Positions 14,800 through 61,674 of a DNA stretch of 64,000 bases are shown piece after piece. The stretch is from Octopus vulgaris (taxonomy: Eukaryota): assembly GCA_951406725.2 (NCBI GenBank), contig OX597819.1:21576001-21640000 (forward strand), given 5' to 3'. Within the stretch, counting starts at the first letter, position 1. Every line of letters starts with the position of its first letter. The notes under the pieces are model-generated. The model saw only the letters and a list, made by a program, of their open reading frames with translations. It ran no database searches and was not told the DNA's origin. The translations under genes and the position numbers were made by a program.

Positions 14800-14995
14800 T
14801 CTATTCTTTTATTTGTTTCAGTCATTTGACTGCGGTCATGCTGGAGCACCACCTTTAGTCGAGCAAATCTACCCCAGGGCTCATTCTTTGTAAGCCGAGT
14901 ATTTATTCTATCAGTCTCTCTTGCCGAACCACTAAACACACCAACATCCGTTGTGAAGCGATGTTAGGGGGACAAACACAGACACACAAACAGAT

Positions 14996-15045
<50 letters not shown>

Positions 15046-15181
15046 GACGGGCTTCTTTCAGTTTCCGTCTATTAAATCTACTCACAAGGCTTTGGTCGGC
15101 CCGAGGCTATAGTAGAAGACACTTGCCCAAGATGCCACGCAGTGGGACTGAACCTGGAACCATGTGGTTGGTAAGCAAGCT
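14800..15181 (-). mobile_element. SINE family A copy with internal (TA)/(TG) microsatellite
   Basis: Reverse complement of the family A sequence (compare 55292-55811). Confidence 0.85.
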
Positions 15182-15195
15182 CATTTATTTCATAT

Positions 15196-16560
15196 AATTT
15201 GCTACAAGGGCATTACACAGAGTAAGAAGCTTGTGGGCTGGACGTAGACAAAATACGATGAAATGAAAACATAATGATAAAGATGAGGAGGATGTCGGCG
15301 CCCACCGGCCAACAAGCCCTCGAATACAATTTTTCTAATACAAAAATTCAAAAATATCAATACAAATAAGGCTCCTAATCGGAGCCCCAAGCAAGTTGAC
15401 TTACCGCCTGCAGACAACTCGGCACCGACAAGTCGGGGCCCGTGAAGAGGAAAGCAAACTCTTTCTTGTCAATTGATAGAATTTTTATGTTCTATTACCT
15501 CCGCAGCCACCTCCGGAGGCCATAATGGACTGCTTATGCAGCCTGAGTATCTGTGGTCTCAGTCGCCCAGGCCGTCCAAAAATTCTCCCACAGGCCCTCC
15601 CTCGTGACAAAGGAAGATAAACTCCTCCTCCTCCTCACGGGAAGGGGCCTCAAGCTGCTCCGTCAGTGGCACACTTCCCATAGACGAAGCCTTTTCTGCT
15701 GGTGACACACATACCACCGGTGGTTCAGTCGGCGGCACGGGGACATCCGCCGGCTGTTCTCTGCTCCTCTTTTTCCTCTTTCTTTTAGAGGCTACGGGAG
15801 CAGGGACAAAAGACGGCGGGCACAGGGGCACTATCCCCCCGTTTCCCGTGCCGCTTGCCCATTTTATGGTGGGCAACCATTGTTGCTCACCTTTCTTTTT
15901 CTCTTCGTGGAGGCAACTTCCTTCATGACTTCTACCGTCTCCTCCAACACAGGGGGTGGGGTGGGCACCTTACTTTCCTGTGCCTGAGCCATGTTACGGC
16001 CCCGGGGGCAGTCCTTCCTAATGTGGTCAGGCTCCAGGCAAGAGTGACACTTGGGGCGGGGCGACCCTCAAGTATCACCGGATACCTGCAGCCAGTCATT
16101 TTTAGGAAGTCCGGGAATACCATTTCGTCTGCGGCCGATGGGGTCCATAAGGTCAAAATTGCTTTTGACCCCCTCCCAGTCGATCGCTGGCGTCATTCTT
16201 ACATATATGAGCATGGGCCCACTATCTCCCACTCACTGCCGGATGGTATCACCAATTCAGCCTGCCTTTGTGCACAGGAGTAGCCCACATACCCAGGCTT
16301 TTATCACCCTCCTCCCACAATAAGTGGAGAGGAACATAATTTCTTGCCCCACAAGGGGCTCGCTGGAAAATCTGCCAGCTTCCTCGGGGGTACCAAACAG
16401 CAACCAGACCGTTGCAAATTTGGTCCGGCCGTGAAATAAATTTTATAATTGGCAGGTAGTCAGCCAACTCTTTCTCTATCACATCTTGTCGAAGAGGGCG
16501 ATGGCACCATGCGACCTAGAATAGGTCCGTAGTACCACCGTCTTCTTCTCGAGATCTTTA
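15196..16560 (-). mobile_element. Decayed ORF1/gag-like (CCHC knuckle) retroelement lacking RT; L1/Tx1-type ORF1
   Basis: Minus strand reads VILEGRP, then a frameshift, then KCHSCLEPDHIRKDCP (CX2CX4HX4C), followed by Lys/Pro/Glu-rich low complexity. 3' end CTCTGTGTAATGCCCTTGTAGCAAAT. GC-rich relative to the flanks. Confidence 0.7.
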
Positions 16561-16584
16561 ATCCACTTTAATCCAAAACATATA

Positions 16585-16660
16585 GTCCGGTCCGGGAATC
16601 GAACTAACAACTTCATGATTTTGTGCCCGATGCTGTAACCACTGAGCCAGGTGCCTGCAC
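16585..16660 (-). mobile_element. Degenerate tRNA-derived SINE head
   Basis: Reverse complement TGGCTCAGTGGTTAC...AGTTCGATTCCCGG (A and B boxes). Confidence 0.55.
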
Positions 16661-21237: not shown

Positions 21238-21775
21238 ATGTTCTCAGGTTCCACTGGCCCCACTCCCGAACAATACGGTCGTTATATAGACGACTGTATC
21301 GGTGCGACCTCACTCTCTCGCGAACATCTAGACTCCTTCCTCTCTTTTGTCAAATCTTTCCATCCTGCCCTCCACTTCTCCTGCACTTTCTCTGACAACT
21401 CTGCCTCCTTTCTTGACATTTCGGCCAGCATTCATCACTCCACTCTCACAACCTGCAGCCACTACAAACACACAGACTCACACTCATACCTCAACTTCTC
21501 CTCCCACCCTAAATACACAAACTTTCCATCCCCTATTCCTCATTCCTCCGTCTGCGCAGGCTCTGATGTGACGACCATAACATTGAGACTCAGTGTCAAC
21601 TCATGGCTCGCCACTTCATCCTACGTGGATATCCTCTCACTACTATCCACACCGTCCTTGCCAGAGCACGTTCCGCGGACCGTGCATCTACTGTCTCCCG
21701 CCGAACCCGCTCCGTCGTCTTCCACCTCCCGATTCCCCTCACCTAACACCCACCACCCTACCTCTCAAACGCACC
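21238..21775 (+). mobile_element. Penelope-like element reverse transcriptase fragment (palm to thumb), frameshifted
   Basis: YGRYIDDCIG...SFHPALHFS...SFLDIS...HYKHTDSHSYLNFSSHP, then in a shifted frame PYSSFLRLRRL*CDD...HFILRGYP, all characteristic of PLE RT. Confidence 0.9.
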
Positions 21776-21780
21776 ATTTT

Positions 21781-22113
21781 TATTTCGGGATGTTAATTTT
21801 CTTTTTTACGGAGATGTACCTGCATAGCAAGTGATTTGATCTGAGATCGTGTGCTGAAACGAAAACAATTGCAGCGTTTTCTTTTCCAAATAAACAGTCA
21901 CACTATGTTTTTTCTTCACTCATGGAGTAAGTGCAGCAAGAACACGCACAAAAACGAAAAGTGTCGCTGAAAAGGTCACAGATGTCTGACGAAAGATTTA
22001 CGGAAAATGGACATGATGAAATAATGAAATAAGAATAGAAATAGATGAGTGAAGAAAAATATATAATGCGTGTGGTTATTTCTCAAAAAAAAAAAAATGT
22101 CCGTCCCGAAATA
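21781..22113. mobile_element. MITE-like element with short TIRs
   Basis: Left TATTTCGGGATG..ATTTT; right reverse complement TATTTCGGGACG..CATTTT. It truncates the PLE RT fragment. Confidence 0.55.
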
Positions 22114-33364: not shown

Positions 33365-34990
33365 AAGTGACAATTTGCACTTTGTCGGCATCCTGGTAAA
33401 ATGCTTTTGGAAAGAGGCATCATCACTCATGTCAGAGGCAGTGAGCTGGCAGAATCGTTAGCACGCCGGGCGAAATGCTTAGTGGTATTTCGTCTGCCGT
33501 TACGTTCTGGGTTCATATTCCGCCAAGGTCGACTTTGCCTTTCATCCTTTCGGGGTCGATTAAATAAGTACCAGTTAAGCACTGGGGTCGATATAATTGA
33601 CTTAATCCGTTTGTCCGTCCTTGTTTATCCTCTCTGTGTTTAGCTCCTTGTGGGTAGTAAAGAAATAGGTATCATCACTCATGTCGATACCCATGTCCCT
33701 CATTGATTTAGGCTCTGTGATGGAAATTCCCTGTGGACCAGTGTACCCTGTAAATTTCATATTCAATTTTGGACGCTGGTAGCCCAGGATTTGGAATTTT
33801 TCAGCATTAAACTACATATTATTATCCTTAGCCCAAGTGTAAATTGAGTCCACTCCTGCTGCAACATCACTGGGGTTCTGCATTTTCTGTGAGACTTTCG
33901 TATCGTCTGCGTAGCTTGCAATGGTCGCTATCCAGCCACTTAAGTGCATATCTGAGAGAATCTGGAGGGGTTTTGCCAGGGCACGCTTACACGACTTGAT
34001 GAGGATTGTTGGGAAACCATCTGGACCAGCAGTTGAGTTTGTGTCCACTTCCACTATGGCTAGTAGTATATCTTCTTCGCTAATGTCAATGTATTCCATC
34101 GTAATTGCCTCGCTGGTTATAGGTGAGGCGGCAAAGAAGTCCACTCGTTCGTTCACTTGTTTGTGTTCCAAAGGAGTGGTAAACACACTTTTGAACTGGT
34201 CATTCAGTACCTCACTGATCCAAGTTGGACTGTCTGTGAGGGAGCCATCCTTTTGGAAGAGGGGTCCTATCTTGCAGCGTATTGTTTCTTTCGCGTAACG
34301 AAAGAAGGACTTTGGGTTTGACAATGTTTTTTATAACCCAGGCTTCTTTGTCTGCCTTCTCCCTCACATAGGATTGTTGCAGCCTTTTTTCGATCTCCAT
34401 AAGTATCGTTTTTATGCGGGACGTTTCGCTACTTTTAGGATGTTGGTTGAGTCGATTTGCAGCCTTCGTCCGTCGGTCTCATGTGGATCACATCTCCCTT
34501 GGAATCTTGCTCCTATTTGTTTTGGCCTTGTGCTCTGGGACATATTCCAGGCATATGGTTTGCACAGAAGACATAAAACATTCTAGTTTCATGTCAATGT
34601 CTGGTGTGGAGAGACATTTCGGCCAGTCCTCTCTGAGGATCTCTTTTTGGATCGATTTCCAATCTGCTTTGTGAAAGTTCAGATTGGAGAGATTTCGGGT
34701 GCTTCCTTTAGGCTCTATGTCTTTGGTTACTTTCGATCCAAACATAGACAGCTCTATTATGTTGTGATTCGAAACTAATGTCGGCGTCACATTCACTTCA
34801 TGAATGATGTCCATATTTTTCGTGAAGCAGAGATCCAGAATGTTATTTGCCCTAGTTGATCTAAGTACAGCTTGCTTCATGAATAGGGCATTGGTGAGGT
34901 TTCGGCAGGGACTCCACCTGTGCTTGCTTGCAATGAGTCATTCCTGAGAGTATGTGACCTTCGGGACATTTGACGCTTGGGAAGTTGTTC
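33365..34990 (-). mobile_element. Decayed CR1/Jockey-group LINE ORF2 (APE C-terminus, tether and RT) with internal deletion, interrupted by a SINE
   Basis: TRANNILDLCFT...SNHNIIE...NFHKADW; NPKSFFRYAK; AGPDGFP; IASYADDTK...WAKDNNM*FNAEKFQ...RDMGIDMSDDASF. Confidence 0.9.
33434..33666 (+). mobile_element. SINE family B (Nin-domain-like), full length, 19-bp TSD
   Basis: GAGCTGGCAGAATCG head, GCCTTTCATCCTTTCGGGGTCGAT..AAGTACCAG central domain, ends AAAGAAAT. TSD AGGYATCATCACTCATGTC at 33415-33433 and 33667-33685. Confidence 0.9.
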
Positions 34991-35092
34991 ATATAATATA
35001 TCATTATTACATTACGTCATTTGACCAAACAACATGATATACTCTCTCTCTCTTCCTGTCTTTCCCTCTCGCGCTTTTACCCTCTCCTTCTC

Positions 35093-35141
<49 letters not shown>

Positions 35142-35144
35142 TAT

Positions 35145-35222
35145 ACAATGCTAAAGAGCATTGTGGCCAACAATGTGTAACATCTGATAGTCTGGTCAGT
35201 CACATTGTCACGTGATCGCATG

Positions 35223-35224
<2 letters not shown>
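35145..35224 (+). mobile_element. 3' tail fragment of SINE family C
   Basis: GCATTGTGGCCAACAATGTGTAACATCTGATAGTCTGGTCAGTCA...CACGTGAT matches 10230-10293. Confidence 0.7.
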
Positions 35225-35280
<56 letters not shown>

Positions 35281-35281
<1 letters not shown>

Positions 35282-35600
35282 AAGGCTGGACGCTTTCCAT
35301 ATGCGATGCTTGAGTATGATCTCCAACATAAATCCGAGTGGCCATATTCATTACAATCATGTATTAACACAATGCAACATATCAGGTATTGAAGCGATGC
35401 TATTCAAGATACAGCTTAGATTGTCAAGCCAAGTCTCATGTATGAGTGATATCAGAATTCCGAAGCAACTTCTCTTTGGCCAATTATCAACAGGAAAGTC
35501 ATTTGAAAGGCCAGTCTTGCGATTGAAAGACACACCCAAAGACATTCTGAAGCGATGCAAAACTTCCGTATCTTCCTTGAAAAACAAAGCAACAGAACTC
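35281..35600 (+). mobile_element. RTE/BovB-like LINE ORF C-terminal fragment
   Basis: RLDAFHMRCL...GIEAMLFKIQLRLSSQVSCMSDIRIPKQLLFGQL..G...RPVLRLKD. Confidence 0.8.
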
Positions 35601-43834: not shown

Positions 43835-44810
43835 GGTTGGACAAAATAATAGGAACAGTATAAAATTTCAAACAAATTTCTTTTAATATGGAGTTGGACC
43901 GCCTTTGACAGTAATTACAGCTTGAATTCTTGTAGTAATGATGGTGGAGGATATCGACTCCTTAATTGTTTTTCTAAAATGCACCATACATGTCCAATAC
44001 TATTGAGATCTGGGCACTGTGGTGACCAGAGAAGATGTTCAACTTCACTAGAATGTTCCTCGTGCCATTCAGTAACAACTTAGGTGTGTAAATTGGTGCA
44101 TTATCATCGCGAAAGATTGCGTTTCCCTCCGGAATCAGTTACATAGCTATAGGATAAATTTGATGCGATAAAAGGCTTAAATAGTCTTAACTATTAATTC
44201 TGCCATTAAGGGAAACCATGATACCGGCGGATTTCCAAGATATAGCCGCCCAAATCATCACAGATCCTCCTCCATGTTTAACAATTGGAAGAAGGCCGTC
44301 TGGGTCAAATGCTTCTTTTGACTGTCTCCACACGTATACTCGGTCGGTGGTCGGAAAGAAGGTAAAGGATGACTTATCCGAGAAAATGACGTTTCCCACT
44401 AGTCCAGGGACCAATTCTGTAGGTTTTTACCCCACTCTAAACGCTTCGGAACGTTTGTTTTTGAAAGTAGTGGTTTTCTGATTGCAGCCCTCTCGTGAAA
44501 TCCGGTTTTGTGCAGCTCCCGGCGAACAGTTTTTGTGGAAACTGGGTTCTCGAGGTGGTCATGAATCTCTTCAATAATTTTGGGAGCTGTACTTTTGTGA
44601 TCCTTTCTAACAATTTGCGACGGTCCTTATCTGGAAATTTTGGTTTTCTTCCGGAGATTTGTTTCGACGAGGAGGTTTTCCCTCTTTCTCAAAGGGTGTC
44701 ATTACTTTCGAGATATTACTTCTTGATACACCAAACATTTCGGCTGTTGTCGTTAAGCTAGCGCCTGCCATACGAGCACCAACATTTTGACTTCTTTGAA
44801 AGTCCAATAG
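43831..44810 (-). mobile_element. Decayed Tc1-family transposon
   Basis: DFQRSQNVGARMAGASLTTTAEMFGVSRSNISKV (HTH); VIFSDKSSF...VKHGGGSVMIWAAIS; WSPQCPDLNSIG. One terminus TA|CAGAGGTTGGACAAAATAAT. Confidence 0.9.
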
Positions 44811-45682: not shown

Positions 45683-45740
45683 TATGTATGTGTGTATGTT
45701 TGTGTGTGTGTGTGTATGTGTGTGTAGACGAGCTACCAAA

Positions 45741-45968
45741 CGGCGAGCTAGCAGAATCGTTAGCACGTCGGGCGAAATGCTTAGCGGTATTTCGGCTGCT
45801 GTTACGTTGTGAGTTCAAATTCCGCCGAGGTCGACTTTGCCTTTCATCCTTTCGGGGTCGATAAATTAAGTACCAGTTAAGTACTGGGGTCGATATACTC
45901 GACTTAATACCTATGTCTGTCAATCTTTGTCCCCTCTATGTTTAGCCCCTTGTGGGTAATAAAGAAAT
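45741..45968 (+). mobile_element. SINE family B (Nin-domain-like)
   Basis: Near-identical to 33434 and 52837; ends AAAGAAAT; sits within a degenerate minus-strand family A copy. Confidence 0.9.
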
Positions 45969-46376
45969 AGGTTTCCGTCTACCATATTGACCCACAAGAC
46001 ATTAAATGGACCGTGGGATAAGATTCCCCAACTAGCTACGCTTTGGGACTGAACCAGGGATCACGTTGACGTTAAGCGAACCATTTAACTAGAAACAAAA
46101 AGCCTCCATAAATATACTAAAATAAAATATGATACAATATACACGCATACGTATACATATAGACGTGTATGCGTGTGTGTAACCTACTGGTTCAGTTGAG
46201 AGGCACTTAACGGGTGAGCTGTTTACCAAAATCTACGAAGGGCGATGACATACGAAATTACTGTTTAATATTCAAGATTCAACTTTTACTGAGTGACACT
46301 GAGAGGTCAGAGATAACGGTTTACGTTAACTGTTTAATACTGTCTAGAGAATTTCTATCAAATTTCGTTATGCAAG

Positions 46377-52836: not shown

Positions 52837-53068
52837 AGGCGGCGAGCTGGCAGAAACGTTAGCACGCCGGGCGAAATGCGTACCCGTATTTCGTTTGCCC
52901 TTACGTTCTGAGTTCAAATTCCGCCGAGGTCCACTTTGCCCTTCATCCTTTCGGGGGTCGATAAATTAAGTATGAGTTGCGCACTGGGGTCGATATAATC
53001 GACTTAATCCCTTTGTCTGTCCTTGTTTGTCCCCTCTGTGTTTAGCCCCTTGTGGGTAGTAAAGAAAT
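52837..53068 (+). mobile_element. SINE family B (Nin-domain-like), full length, 14-bp TSD
   Basis: TSD TATATAAAGTAGCA at 52823-52836 and 53070-53083; ends AAAGAAAT. Confidence 0.9.
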
Positions 53069-54114
53069 ATATATAAAGTAGCATGTGGCATACAGCAAGC
53101 ATATCAGAGCGGAGAACATCGATTCCGGTATTGATGGTGTTGCTGGTACTGTTATTGTTGTTGATTATGATAATGATGATGATGATGAGGAGGAGGAGGA
53201 GGAAGATAATGATGATGTTGTGAGACACGTAGATTTCTCTCTCATTACATTGTTGCTGGTGTTGTTTATAAGGTTGTCTGAATTACTGTCAAAATGATCG
53301 AATCATAATAGGGCTTTGGGGTTTGGCTATGAATAAAATTATGGAAATTAAGGGACAAATATAGGATAGACAAATTGCTTGGGAAAGGAGCACCTGATCA
53401 AGAGATCTCTTTTCAAGTAAAGAAGAGGTTTTATGGGAATTTCAGTAGAAAGGAATTGAAAATAAGGGAGCGCAGTCGGCTAAATTGACAGGGATCACGA
53501 GTGAAAAGGGATGGGAATCTATTTTGGGAGTTTAGGTTATTGGTTTCAGAGTGTTGATCGCTTGTCGTCAATAGTTATGGTTAGCGGAACAGAATGCCGT
53601 TTGCTGATTTCCTGCCATCACCATTCAAAGAAACAGGATCCTACAAGTATTGACAGCATGGACCAGGGGCTTAATTTTTATAAAAGTATGATTAATACTT
53701 CTACTGTGAGCTTGTTCCGACTCTCTTATTTGGATCCATTCGGTAACCAGGTGTCAGAATCTTGCGATGGATTCGTCTATAGTATTTGGAGACTGAATAT
53801 ATATCAGTGTATATTTAACTTTTCTGATCAGTTTAGATATAACATTATTTTCTAAATGACAGGCGTTTGTACACGTGAGTTTACTCGATACGTTTATCTC
53901 CCTAAAATCACTTCCGATGCATTGATTTGTGCTATTACTCTGAATTTTTGGTGGGTATTTTATTGCCAAATAGTGAATAAATGTATCTGCCTTTTACACT
54001 AGCCGCTACGATATATACTATGTATTTAATATTTAAACACAAAACGTCTATCAGAAATGTTATGTTTGAAATATGTTGCATCATAACTGCTGTATATATA
54101 TATATATATATACG

Positions 54115-58966: not shown

Positions 58967-59664
58967 TTTATATAAGTGTCGTCTGTTTACACATAAACAC
59001 TGTTTCATACTTTCAGTTTAGTCTTCCTCAAATCACTCTGTCGCTAATTTACTCTCTTCCAAGAACATTTTCACTCACTCTTGTCTGTTAGCTTCCCATA
59101 CATTTTACTCATGTATCTATCAGCGTGATAGACAGAAACAAATATTACATCTAGTTTCACTTTATTCGTTGCACACTGTGTGTGTGCGTTTGCGTGTGCT
59201 GTAAACCAGACTAAGAAAAGCATTTGACATACACACCAGAATGTGAGTTTTCTGTAAATTTTGCTTAATTGAAGTTTCAATTTTAAAAACTGGACCTGGC
59301 ATGACCCGATGCATTCTACTCTTAAAAATGCTAGGTAAATTGTAATTGAAGAAATCCTATATTGTAGATTTCTATAGCTTACAAAGGGAGGCAGATAAAA
59401 TCTGCCTTTTATAATAAGAGATTCAAACCCAAGCTTAACAAACAATGATTAAATTAATCTTATTTGGTGACTAAAAATCTTATCTCCTTAACCAAAACCA
59501 AAAATTTCTAAAAAGTACTGCAATCATCATTTCTAAAAATAAACATTGCAAAATGGTTTGGCATCATTTCTAAATATAGCCAAACAACTCATACTGCTGC
59601 CCACATGAACACATACAAAGGACAATAGACAGCCAGTCAACCAAAGTAGAAACAGTCACAGGTG

Positions 59665-61386
59665 TCGTTCACACGTGTGTTTTTTTGGGGTTTTTTGGGG
59701 GTTTTTTAGCTCGTGCGGTGAAGACGTTATGCTGTTGTGAAAACGTCGTTACGTGTTCGGTTCTGTTGGGAATTCGGAAAAGTTGGTTTTAGTTATAAGG
59801 TTTGCTTTTAGTAATTTTCACTGGTGAATTTAGTCTGTCTGTTTGAGACAGACGAAGGAGAATGAGCTTTTTCTCGTTGAGAGGAGGAATGGAAGTGACA
59901 AGGAGAAGAATGTTCAGTGAGTCGGACTTGTCGTCTTCCGAAGAAGAGTTAGTGGAGGCGATGGAAAAAATGGACATGGTTTTAAAAAAAAGAAAATACG
60001 CAGGTGCAACAAAGACAGTGACGAAGGAAATAAATTTGGCAAAGTTGCCGGAAACCCAGGATATGATAAGAAGAGTAAACGGAGAGGTGGAATTGTTGCT
60101 GCCCAACAGGAAAAGGAACAAAATGGAAAAAAAGAAAATAACGTACAGAGTCTTAGCTAATGAAAAGAAAATAGCAGATATAATAAGCATGGAAACGCTA
60201 GCGGAAGCCCTAAGAACAACAGAAGAAATGATATTCCTCGCAAGAGGAAATAAGTATGCCACAGTGGTGGTACAGTATAAAAACGAGGAAACAGCAAGAA
60301 GAATGGCTGCAAAGACAATAAATAATGAAAAAGTAACACTTCTACCCACTTATCTAGGGAGAAGAACCTCAAGAATTACGGTGGATGGAATACCACCGGT
60401 TATCGATGCAGAAATGGTAGTAGCAGCGGTTATCTGCGGTAACGAAGATAAGGTTGACATAGTCCAAGCGACTATAACAGATGATAGAGGGTGGAGAGGT
60501 GGGACGCTGGAAATGAGCGTCCAAGCAGAAATGGGAATCCTACAAAATTTAGCAGAATCGATTACGACAAACGACATAACAATGAGAGTATGGGTGGAGG
60601 GCAGAGCCCCTCGATGTTATAAATCTGGCTTGAAAGGCCACATAAGAGCAAACTGCAATACGACAGTGGAAGAGATAAACGAAGAAGCAGCAGTGGAAAC
60701 GGTAGCACCCCAGGAGGAACTGAAAGAAACAGAAGAAAAAGAGAGTCAAGTGAAGGAAGACGGAAAAGAGGATGAAAATCCAGGAAAAAGAAAACAGTGG
60801 AAAACAAAAAAGGCAAGTGACTGTGAAACGCAACCCACCACAGCACCACCCTCACCCATTGTGGCCCAACCCGTCCACGCAGACACCAAACCCATCCACT
60901 ACCCACCAACAAGAAAATTTAAAACATGCACATAATTGATAACTCAAAAACCCCGTCCAGAAGAATATTGTTTAAGGAAAATAGACAGTGAGCAATTACA
61001 TGAAAGATTAAAGAACTGGGGAAAGGCCGAAATGCCAGATAGATGGGATGAAGAAATGGAAGTGGTATTGTCGGAAGAGCAAGTGAAAGAACTTAAAAAT
61101 GAACTTGAAGATGCATACATGTTAATTAGAGGAAGATTAGTACAGGAAAAGAAAAATGAACTCTGGAAAATACACGGGTTAAAATTTGGGGATTTCGTGG
61201 ATTTTGTAGTAAAATAGGAAAAAGGACAAGCAAGTGATGTTGACTGGTGGGACAGTTAACATCACCTTCACCTCTCATCTATCGCCCATTTTTCCATCCC
61301 ATCATTCGACAATTTTTTATGTTTTGTGTCCCCAACGTGTCGTAATGTCCCATCTATGTATAGTCCTTTATGGATAATAAAGAAAT
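59665..61386 (+). mobile_element. ORF1-only non-autonomous retroelement, apparently full length
   Basis: Flanked by TCACAGGTG (59656-59664) and TCACAGCTG (61387-61395). About 200-bp 5' UTR, one long reading frame, and a short 3' UTR ending AATAAAGAAAT. No RT or endonuclease motifs. Confidence 0.75.
59862..61217 (+). pseudogene. L1/Tx1-type ORF1 (gag-like) protein with RRM-like region and CCHC knuckle; one in-frame stop at 60933-60935
   Basis: The 357-aa and 93-aa ORFs are in the same frame. LLPTYLGRRTSRITVDGIPP and VWVEGRAPRCYKSGLKGHIRANC (CX2CX4HX4C with the second C changed to S). Confidence 0.75.
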
Positions 61387-61674
61387 TCACAGCTGAAACA
61401 CTCCTGTCACAACCTGGAACCTTGAAGACTGCTATAATGTAAGAAAGTATACTAGTCCCTTAATATTTTATATTCAATATTTCATCTATTCAATAAGACA
61501 ATCAATACTTCATTTCATTTTACTATATATATATATATATATATTATTTATAGTATATATTCTATATTCTACATTAATATTATGAAGAATATAAATAAAA
61601 CATAAAAAACCAGACAGATTTGGAATTTCTTTGAATAATATATATCCCTCTATACACAATCATACAAACCCCTT

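What the first reader, a model, noticed from the sequence alone, without database searches (positions are those of the whole stretch)
59656..61395. Complete ORF1-only retroelement whose 3' stem-loop tail is shared with Nin-type SINEs, with a compensatory change
Seen: a 1.72-kb unit with a 9-bp near-perfect flanking repeat, one frame of about 451 codons (single stop), a gag-like CCHC knuckle and no RT. Its last 38 nt (CCCATCTATGTATAGTCCTTTATGGATAATAAAGAAAT, 61349-61386) match the tail of SINE family B (CCCCTCTATGTTTAGCCCCTTGTGGGTAATAAAGAAAT, 45931-45968) at 32 of 38 positions by hand. The mini-hairpin covaries (CCC-cttgt-GGG versus TCC-tttat-GGA). Both end at AAAGAAAT rather than poly(A), as fixed by the SINE TSDs. 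Established: SINEs borrow the 3' recognition tail of a partner LINE, and mammalian HAL1 elements encode ORF1 only. Inference: a three-member system made of an unseen autonomous L1/Tx1-like driver, a protein-coding ORF1-only dependent element and a Nin-SINE, all using one RNA recognition hairpin.
Basis: partly seen in the sequence, partly recalled or inferred. Interest (0 to 1): 0.8.

Follow-up and report, generated by a model that had tools for sequence, protein, structure and literature searches.

The report
Octopus half-LINE sharing a SINE tail
This octopus jumping gene, one of several related copies, encodes only a predicted RNA-binding protein and no copying enzyme, and it ends in the same 40-base tail as a common short repeat, so both likely borrow the copying enzyme of one full-length element that has not yet been seen.

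Summary
59665-61386 (+) is a 1.72-kb unit with an 8/9 flanking repeat, one 451-codon frame broken by one stop, no RT or endonuclease, and a 41-nt tail shared with all three copies of a tRNA-type SINE in the window (32, 30, 28 of 38). The protein models as two RRMs plus a decayed CCHC knuckle, a type I LINE ORF1p, and has many octopod relatives. Public contigs show at least four diverged copies in each of three organisms; most lack the stop. A second, distant ORF1 element in the window (about 16590-15187, minus) also ends about 190 nt after ORF1, with a similar 3'-UTR hairpin and no ORF2. Best reading: an ORF1-only non-autonomous LINE family (like HAL1, HeT-A, Ag-Sponge) that likely shares a 3' recognition tail with a SINE. 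Not shown: the autonomous driver, its clade, the absence of ORF2 in other copies, the Nin label. The compensatory change is real but is one pair and not significant. The class is known; an octopus lineage with a sequence-specific, non-poly(A) tail shared with a SINE was not found in the papers searched.

The parts
59665..61386 (+). E1: ORF1-only non-LTR retroelement, 1722 nt
   Evidence: the 5' end rests on the flanking repeat alone
59656..59664 (+). left copy of the 9-bp putative target-site duplication
   Evidence: 8 of 9
61387..61395 (+). right copy of the 9-bp putative target-site duplication
   Evidence: rival 6-bp reading 59649-59654 / 61395-61400
59665..59861 (+). T-rich 5' UTR (41% T)
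   Evidence: other copies align from about 59710
59862..61217 (+). ORF1, 451 codons, A-rich (41% A), one in-frame stop at 60933-60935
   Evidence: P0002 aligns across the stop; most other copies differ at 60933
60099..60362 (+). predicted RRM-like domain 1 (aa 80-167)
   Evidence: AlphaFold model, block pLDDT above 90; La RRM Z 10.1, rmsd 2.3, 82 aligned
60357..60608 (+). predicted RRM/ferredoxin-like domain 2 (aa 166-249)
   Evidence: best match Z 8.6 is an ACT-type ferredoxin fold; tandem-RRM proteins lead the Foldseek list
60615..60656 (+). CCHC zinc knuckle, decayed here (second Cys is Ser)
   Evidence: the full motif is in 46 of the 150 hits; zf-CCHC in relatives
61234..61265 (+).
   Evidence: z -3.1, 2 of 200 shuffles as good; depth peak and variation at loop positions in other copies
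61346..61386 (+). 41-nt tail shared with the SINE; weak stem-loop 61353-61383 with inner stem 61363-61375
45738..45968 (+). SINE copy with the shared tail (no clean TSD; start approximate)
33434..33666 (+). SINE copy with the shared tail, 19-bp TSD with one mismatch
52837..53069 (+). SINE copy with the shared tail, 14-bp TSD
15187..16590 (-). E2: second, distant, decayed and probably 5'-truncated ORF1 element; ORF1 remnant to about 15375, then about 190 nt ending in GAAAT; no ORF2 found behind it; no TSD found
   Evidence: profile hit E 3e-24; 42% to an O. sinensis protein, 21% to E1
15293..15314 (-). E2 3'-UTR hairpin resembling the E1 hairpin
   Evidence: second-best stem among 25 sites with the same loop hexamer, after E1's own; z -1.7
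61396..61460 (.). unidentified high-copy host repeat into which E1 is inserted (continues on the left at about 59400-59654)
   Evidence: depth about 160,000 against 50-76 for the locus's own contigs, and joints that skip E1

Best explanation
This is a decayed copy of a multi-copy octopus retroelement that encodes only a LINE ORF1-type protein (predicted two RRMs plus a CCHC knuckle) and ends in the same 41-nt tail as a tRNA-type SINE; it is likely an ORF1-only non-autonomous LINE family whose RNA would be copied in trans by the reverse transcriptase and endonuclease of an unseen autonomous LINE, probably of the L1/Tx1 group, that would recognise this tail. Shown: anatomy, tail homology, several diverged copies in three organisms, a second element of the same build. 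Inferred: transcription from the 5' UTR; ORF1p coating its own RNA and helping it reach the partner's ORF2p, as proposed for HeT-A, HAL1 and Ag-Sponge; binding of ORF2p to the tail stem-loop; target-primed reverse transcription starting at or next to AAAGAAAT and leaving a short duplication; the SINE using the same tail without coding anything.
For: Tail 32, 30, 28 of 38, next best 25. No RT or endonuclease in or beside the unit. Two RRM-like domains plus knuckle, the type I ORF1p layout described for Tx1-like elements (PMC5203782). 234 relatives; the named ones looked up are from Octopus sinensis, O. vulgaris, O. bimaculoides and Argonauta; none of 34 scanned has an RT or endonuclease family (28, 6, one protein in both); at least four distinct sequences overlap 59921-60156 in X1 and in X4, and four overlap 60234-60486 in X8; most depth at 60933 carries another base (186 of 300, 20 of 20, 276 of 276 in X1, X4, X8); diverged contigs carry variants at 61284, 61300, 61318 and 61341, some 70 letters from a contig end, so UTR and tail are joined in other copies; summed depth between hairpin and tail (639 in X1) is close to that of the ORF body (290-500), whereas a 6-kb LINE should leave many more 3' ends than ORF1 copies (rough: the tool says depth is no copy number). 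E2, on a separate deep branch, also ends about 190 nt after ORF1 with a like hairpin. The nine Logan-sourced relatives looked up lie on contigs of 1.1-2.2 kb, four of one cluster at 1849-1930 nt. O. vulgaris has 13 recently active L1-Tx1 families and 11.7% SINE DNA (PMC13282606).
Against: No genome was held, no listed contig spans the element, and only 24 of 512 loose ends were shown, so copies with ORF2 between ORF1 and tail are not excluded. No autonomous element with this tail was seen. Two more distant relatives lie on contigs of 5.7 and 6.2 kb, the size of a full LINE (P0153, P0152); their DNA could not be read. E1 and E2 3' UTRs are not significantly alike overall (341 of 1000 shuffles as good) and a tail profile does not find E2. 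Covariation in the tail is not significant (116 of 500). Short Logan contigs can be mere fragments. The TSD is short, imperfect and has a rival reading. Of 24 listed ORF differences between this copy and the others only 6 are silent, as expected for decay of this copy, so they give no sign of selection.
Confidence: 0.65

Rival explanations
1. E1 is a one-off or rare internally deleted copy of an ordinary two-ORF L1/Tx1 LINE that is itself the SINE's partner; the other copies are full or 5'-truncated LINEs.
For: Recently active L1-Tx1 insertions in O. vulgaris average about 5.4 kb (2,288,644 bp over 421). Distant relatives on 5.7-6.2 kb contigs. The listed rows leave 61195-61206 unbridged in diverged copies and 488 loose ends are hidden. 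The last 90 residues could not be tied to the C-terminal domain of other relatives (78 of 500 shuffles as good), so a fusion to the end of an ORF2 is possible.
Against: E2 has the same build on a distant branch. No excess of 3' ends over ORF1, and no listed loose end near the ORF1 stop. P0002 aligns to aa 391, past the stop. A random deletion would have to keep ORF1 whole and the 3' UTR whole.
Confidence: 0.2
2. The family took its tail from the SINE, or from an unrelated LINE clade, by template switching, so the enzyme donor is not the source of ORF1 (for example a single-ORF RTE, Dong-R4 or Hero element, or CR1).
For: Similarity is limited to 41 nt and starts abruptly. Tail exchange is common in SINEs (PMC4824008; PMC5786205). 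RTE and Dong-R4 are the largest LINE groups in O. vulgaris. The end is not poly(A).
Against: The tail is joined to this UTR in several diverged copies, so any switch is old. Known ORF1-only elements derive from their own driver's clade. AATAAA in the tail and SINE TSDs of 14-19 bp fit an L1-group element (general knowledge, no call).
Confidence: 0.1
3. The unit is a processed copy or duplicate of a host or domesticated RRM-CCHC gene (ZCCHC3-like), with a 41-nt SINE remnant inserted at its end.
For: ZCCHC3-type clusters score 0.90 by features; many relatives are annotated as uncharacterised genes.
Against: Many divergent paralogues per genome, many of them fragments; depth peak of over 100 times the locus's own contigs at the knuckle; tail attached in several diverged copies; no ZCCHC3 Pfam family at E 0.1 in 28 relatives; no poly(A).
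Confidence: 0.05

Closest known systems
HAL1 (half-L1) of mammals
   Same: Non-autonomous derivative of an L1-group LINE that encodes only ORF1p (PMC5753468, PMC5786205; passages).
   Different: Mammalian L1 ORF1p is type II (coiled coil, one RRM, CTD); here two predicted RRMs plus CCHC (type I). Mammalian L1 recognises poly(A) and shares no tail with SINEs (PMC3747384); this element ends in a defined tail shared with a SINE.
HeT-A (Jockey clade, Drosophila) and Ag-Sponge (CR1 clade, Anopheles)
   Same: ORF1-present bipartite non-autonomous LINEs whose protein is thought to multimerise with the partner's (PMC5786205).
   Different: Other clades and hosts. HeT-A is telomeric with a long 3' UTR (recalled); this element sits inside an interspersed repeat and has a 169-nt UTR.
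L1-Tx1 LINEs of Octopus vulgaris
   Same: 80 families, 13 recently active (PMC13282606); RRM plus CCHC ORF1p is described as consistent with Tx1 (PMC5203782).
   Different: Those carry ORF2 and average about 5.4 kb when near full length. No sequence link to this element could be tested.
Stringent SINE/LINE pairs with a shared 3' stem-loop (eel UnaL2; maize and sorghum L1 with SINEs)
   Same: About 40-45 nt of shared 3' sequence that can fold as a stem-loop (PMC3747384).
   Different: Here the element that shares the tail with the SINE has no RT, so both would depend on a third element; covariation is not significant on four sequences.

Membership tests
ORF1-only non-autonomous LINE (HAL1 / HeT-A / Ag-Sponge type) | encodes a LINE ORF1-type protein | tested here: met
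   two RRM-like domains plus CCHC
ORF1-only non-autonomous LINE (HAL1 / HeT-A / Ag-Sponge type) | no ORF2 (RT, endonuclease) in this copy | tested here: met
   169 nt from stop to 3' end; no Pfam hit in flanking frames; the same scan found RVT_1 at 33670-35500
ORF1-only non-autonomous LINE (HAL1 / HeT-A / Ag-Sponge type) | the short form spread as a family (several dispersed ORF1-only copies with own TSDs) | tested here: inconclusive
   multi-copy shown, UTR-tail junction shared, E2 of like build; but no contig spans a whole second copy
ORF1-only non-autonomous LINE (HAL1 / HeT-A / Ag-Sponge type) | 5' and 3' parts shared with an identified autonomous LINE | not testable with these tools
   no genome; tail pattern absent from the three contig collections
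ORF1-only non-autonomous LINE (HAL1 / HeT-A / Ag-Sponge type) | insertion by target-primed reverse transcription (TSD, fixed 3' end) | tested here: inconclusive
   8/9 repeat with a 6-bp rival; diverse loose ends at 61386 that may be mostly SINE tails
HAL1 proper | mammalian L1 type II ORF1p (Transposase_22) | tested here: not met
   no such Pfam hit in E1 or 28 relatives; model has two RRM-like domains and a knuckle
HAL1 proper | poly(A) 3' end | tested here: not met
   ends AAAGAAAT
Tx1 / L1 clade | RT phylogeny | not testable with these tools
   the element has no RT and the partner was not found
Tx1 / L1 clade | ORF1p with RRM(s) and CCHC | tested here: met
   the layout is not exclusive to Tx1 (I, Jockey and R1 have knuckles too; recalled)
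Nin-DC (Deu) SINE, for the SINE | central Nin domain | tested here: inconclusive
   short motifs of the SINE body were not found in the supplements searched, which show no Nin or Meta consensus as text; tRNA-Deu SINEs cover 61 Mb of O. vulgaris
LTR retrotransposon or provirus (gag only) | long terminal repeats | tested here: not met
   no terminal direct repeat beyond 9 bp
LTR retrotransposon or provirus (gag only) | capsid fold | tested here: inconclusive
   no capsid among the listed fold matches, which are RRM and ferredoxin-like folds; sequence matches to nucleocapsids cover the knuckle only

The most novel reading that the evidence does not exclude
Octopods carry an old, self-standing radiation of ORF1-only retroelements (subfamilies only 20-60% alike in protein, in Octopus and Argonauta) that kept a coding ORF1 and a 3'-UTR hairpin for tens of millions of years without an ORF2 of their own, and that use the same sequence-specific tail as an abundant SINE: one reverse transcriptase serving a coding and a non-coding dependant, possibly with the ORF1-only elements supplying ORF1p to a driver that lacks it.
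Probability: 0.25. Interest if true: 0.75.

Novelty: new variant of a known kind. Interest (0 to 1): 0.52.

Why it matters
SINEs make up about 12% of the O. vulgaris genome and most are unclassified. A coding element that shares the SINE's tail gives a handle on the enzyme behind that expansion. It would add a fourth origin of ORF1-only LINEs to the three that PMC5786205 lists, apparently the first reported from a mollusc in the papers searched, and one with a defined non-poly(A) tail. It makes two questions testable: what keeps ORF1 under selection in an element that cannot copy itself, and whether an animal L1/Tx1-type enzyme recognises a specific 3' RNA. It also suggests that many 'uncharacterised' CCHC gene models in octopus annotations are retroelement ORF1s.

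Tried and rejected
No whole genome was held, so the genome-wide copy census could not be run. The tail pattern found 0 matches in viral, metagenome and prokaryote genome contigs; a protein-alignment scan of metagenome contigs gave 93 candidates, none confirmed. These collections hold little or no octopus DNA, so the blanks say nothing. Two searches for longer, ORF1-ORF2 fused proteins were blank; one search also missed known relatives of 640-860 aa, so it is uninformative. No RNA holder was listed; run X5 is only guessed to be RNA, so expression is untested. Pfam gave nothing for E1's own protein. Rfam gave only weak miRNA matches below threshold; ARAGORN found no tRNA. The C-terminal 93 aa gave no atlas match (0.76), a low-confidence model (pLDDT 59; not searched further) and no significant match to a 7-sequence profile of relatives' C-termini. 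Global alignment of the E1 and E2 3' UTRs and a tail profile search were not significant; the hairpin test was chosen after seeing both sequences. Inverted repeats between the ORF end and the 3' UTR were set aside as purine/pyrimidine composition. No partner end for the host repeat was found, so it stays unidentified. LTR/gag-only and host-gene readings were rejected as above. Literature: 10 full-text searches listed no paper on an ORF1-only octopus element, judged from listings and the passages read; Repbase, Dfam and the Zenodo library of PMC13282606 could not be searched and may already hold the family. Bao and Jurka 2010 was not held; Piskurek and Jackson 2011 was not read. One supplementary file each of PMC4824008 and PMC4758252 could not be searched and may bear on the Nin/Meta question.

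Full report
Setting. The window is octopus DNA: the best protein match is an Octopus sinensis gene model and the named relatives come from three Octopus species and Argonauta. No whole genome was held, so copy evidence comes from one laying of public contigs and from protein searches.

The observation. The unit runs from 59665 to 61386 between TCACAGGTG and TCACAGCTG. It has a 197-nt T-rich leader, one frame of 451 codons with a single stop at 60933-60935, and 169 nt after the final stop. The last 38 nt match the three SINE copies at 32, 30 and 28 positions; the best other site on either strand scores 25, and the chance of 32 or more anywhere is about 1e-9. Identity ends about 41 nt from the 3' end. 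TSDs fix the SINE end in 2 of 3 copies; all three have one more A and two continue GGT, so the end is known to within a few bases. The tail can fold as an imperfect 10-pair stem with all 40 cells paired and one double change, but 116 of 500 shuffles do as well and folding z-scores are -0.7 and -1.6. The covariation is compatible with a structure and does not prove one.

The protein. Pfam does not name it. A full-library search gave 234 relatives, of which 150 were listed; 46 of the 150 have an intact CCHC motif. A model built on 45 sequences has two confident alpha/beta domains at aa 80-167 and 166-249. Tandem-RRM proteins lead the Foldseek list; the first domain matches the La RRM at Z 10.1, rmsd 2.3 over 82 residues, and the second matches ferredoxin-like folds at Z up to 8.6. 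With the knuckle at aa 252-265 this is the type I ORF1p layout, which PMC5203782 (passages) calls consistent with Tx1 in non-mammalian animals. The atlas gave arthropod CCHC clusters at 0.92-0.93 and ZCCHC3-type clusters at 0.90. None of the relatives scanned has an RT or endonuclease family, and no stored protein over 500 aa has the simple RT or endonuclease motifs tested. The closest relative aligns across the stop to aa 391, so the part after the stop belongs to the same protein; its last 60 residues have no confirmed homologue.

Other copies. I laid 4 of the 24 listed runs, from three organism labels. Besides near-identical contigs of this locus, each DNA run holds contigs 82-90% alike: at least four distinct sequences overlap 59921-60156 in X1 and in X4, and four overlap 60234-60486 in X8. 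Most depth at 60933 carries another base (186 of 300, 20 of 20, 276 of 276), so the stop looks private to this copy. Organism B has a contig across the left junction with 3 differences in 345 nt, so the insertion predates the split of A and B. Depth peaks at the knuckle and at the 3'-UTR hairpin, where the listed variants fall in the loop. Diverged contigs run from the UTR into the tail. Depth between hairpin and tail (639 in X1) is near that of the ORF body (290-500); a full LINE family would be expected to leave far more 3' ends than ORF1 copies, but the tool warns that depth is no copy number. No loose end is listed near the ORF1 stop, though only 24 of 512 were shown and no piece spans the element. 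Both flanks are repeats, and several joints skip the element. One joins at GAAACA, which gives a rival 6-bp TSD; other host variants carry the right-hand sequence, which fits the 9-bp reading.

A second element. An ORF1 profile found a second, decayed member at 16568-15891 on the minus strand (E 3e-24), 42% identical to another O. sinensis model and 21% to E1, on a separate branch of the tree (25 rows, chosen as the longer hits, deep forks unresolved). Its frame ends near 15375 and about 190 nt later the sequence ends in GAAAT against a SINE head that lacks its first 26 or so bases. No RT or endonuclease family lies in the 6 kb behind it, while the same scan did detect RVT_1 elsewhere in the window. 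Of 25 sites with the loop hexamer GGTGGG, the two longest stems are those of E1 and E2 (test chosen after the fact). Against this, the two UTRs are not significantly alike overall (341 of 1000 shuffles), a tail profile misses E2, and E2 has no TSD. E2 is support for the build, not for the shared tail. The nine Logan-sourced relatives looked up lie on contigs of 1.1-2.2 kb, four of one cluster at 1849-1930 nt; two members of a more distant group lie on contigs of 5.7 and 6.2 kb, which would fit a full LINE.

Mechanism. Shown: ORF1-type protein, no ORF2 in two copies, several diverged copies, tail homology. Inferred: the element is transcribed, its ORF1p coats the RNA, and the ORF2p of an autonomous LINE binds the 3' tail and reverse-transcribes at a nick; the SINE carries the same tail and uses the same enzyme. 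The driver is probably L1/Tx1 by elimination: of the LINE groups recently active in O. vulgaris (RTE, Dong-R4, CR1, L1-Tx1, Hero, R2), L1-Tx1 is the one known for RRM plus CCHC ORF1p; that the others lack such a protein is recalled, not tested. I put 0.65 on a true ORF1-only family with this mechanism, 0.2 on a deleted copy of a two-ORF LINE, 0.1 on a captured tail with an unrelated driver and 0.05 on a host gene.

Comparison with what is known. PMC5786205 (passages) lists HeT-A, HAL1 and Ag-Sponge as ORF1-present non-autonomous LINEs from Jockey, L1 and CR1. PMC5753468 (passages) defines HAL1. PMC3747384 (passages) describes shared SINE/LINE tails and notes that mammalian L1 shares only poly(A). 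The element works like these but is not HAL1: the ORF1p type and the 3' end differ. For the SINE, the Nin label is untested. PMC4824008 (passages and section 9) describes MetaSINEs as a tRNA head directly followed by a 66-bp domain, which fits the layout here; from memory the body looks more like Meta than Nin, a lead only. Also seen: PMC4758252 (passages, supplement search), PMC5804259 (passages, supplement), PMC13282606 (two of three parts and the supplement), PMC10294476 and PMC9115989 (passages). None of what I saw describes an ORF1-only octopus element. Repbase, Dfam and the O. vulgaris library could not be searched.

Verdict. Real and more than chance; most likely a new variant of a known kind. 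Interest 0.52: the class is known, the driver is unseen, and the covariation is weak, but a coding dependant and a SINE sharing one defined tail gives a direct way to find the enzyme behind octopus SINEs. The boldest reading not excluded, an old ORF1-only radiation across octopods, has about 0.25 probability and would merit 0.75.

Noticed in passing
window 15187-16590 (-): Second, distant ORF1-type element with no ORF2 behind it and a similar 3'-UTR hairpin.
   Followed up: partly
window 33667-33670, 45969-45972; loose ends at 61386: Two of three SINE copies are followed by AGGT, and loose-end consensus in runs X5 and X8 also starts AGGT: either a target preference or a longer SINE end. E1 does not show it.
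   Followed up: no
window 59400-59654 and 61396-61460: Unidentified host repeat; the right part has over 1000 times the depth of the locus's own contigs, and about 10 nt at the insertion point vary strongly among host copies.
   Followed up: partly
window 33670-35500 (-): Decayed LINE with an RVT_1 match (E 3.6e-4), CR1/L2-like by eye; the SINE at 33434-33666 sits at its edge.
   Followed up: no
window 21238-21831 (+): Open frame with a YIDD motif that looks like a Penelope-like RT remnant by eye; no Pfam hit.
   Followed up: no
window 44402-44626 (-): Tc1/mariner transposase fragment (HTH_Tnp_Tc3_2, E 2e-16).
   Followed up: no
window 16580-16660 (-) and 14840-15184 (-): tRNA-like SINE head just 5' of E2, and a second SINE family lacking its first 26 or so bases just 3' of it.
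   Followed up: partly
proteins P0003, P0010, P0057, P0147: Public gene models or names (EPM2A-interacting-like, zinc-finger fusion, LDL-repeat fusion, nek3) that contain this ORF1 domain; probably annotation artefacts over retroelement copies.
   Followed up: no
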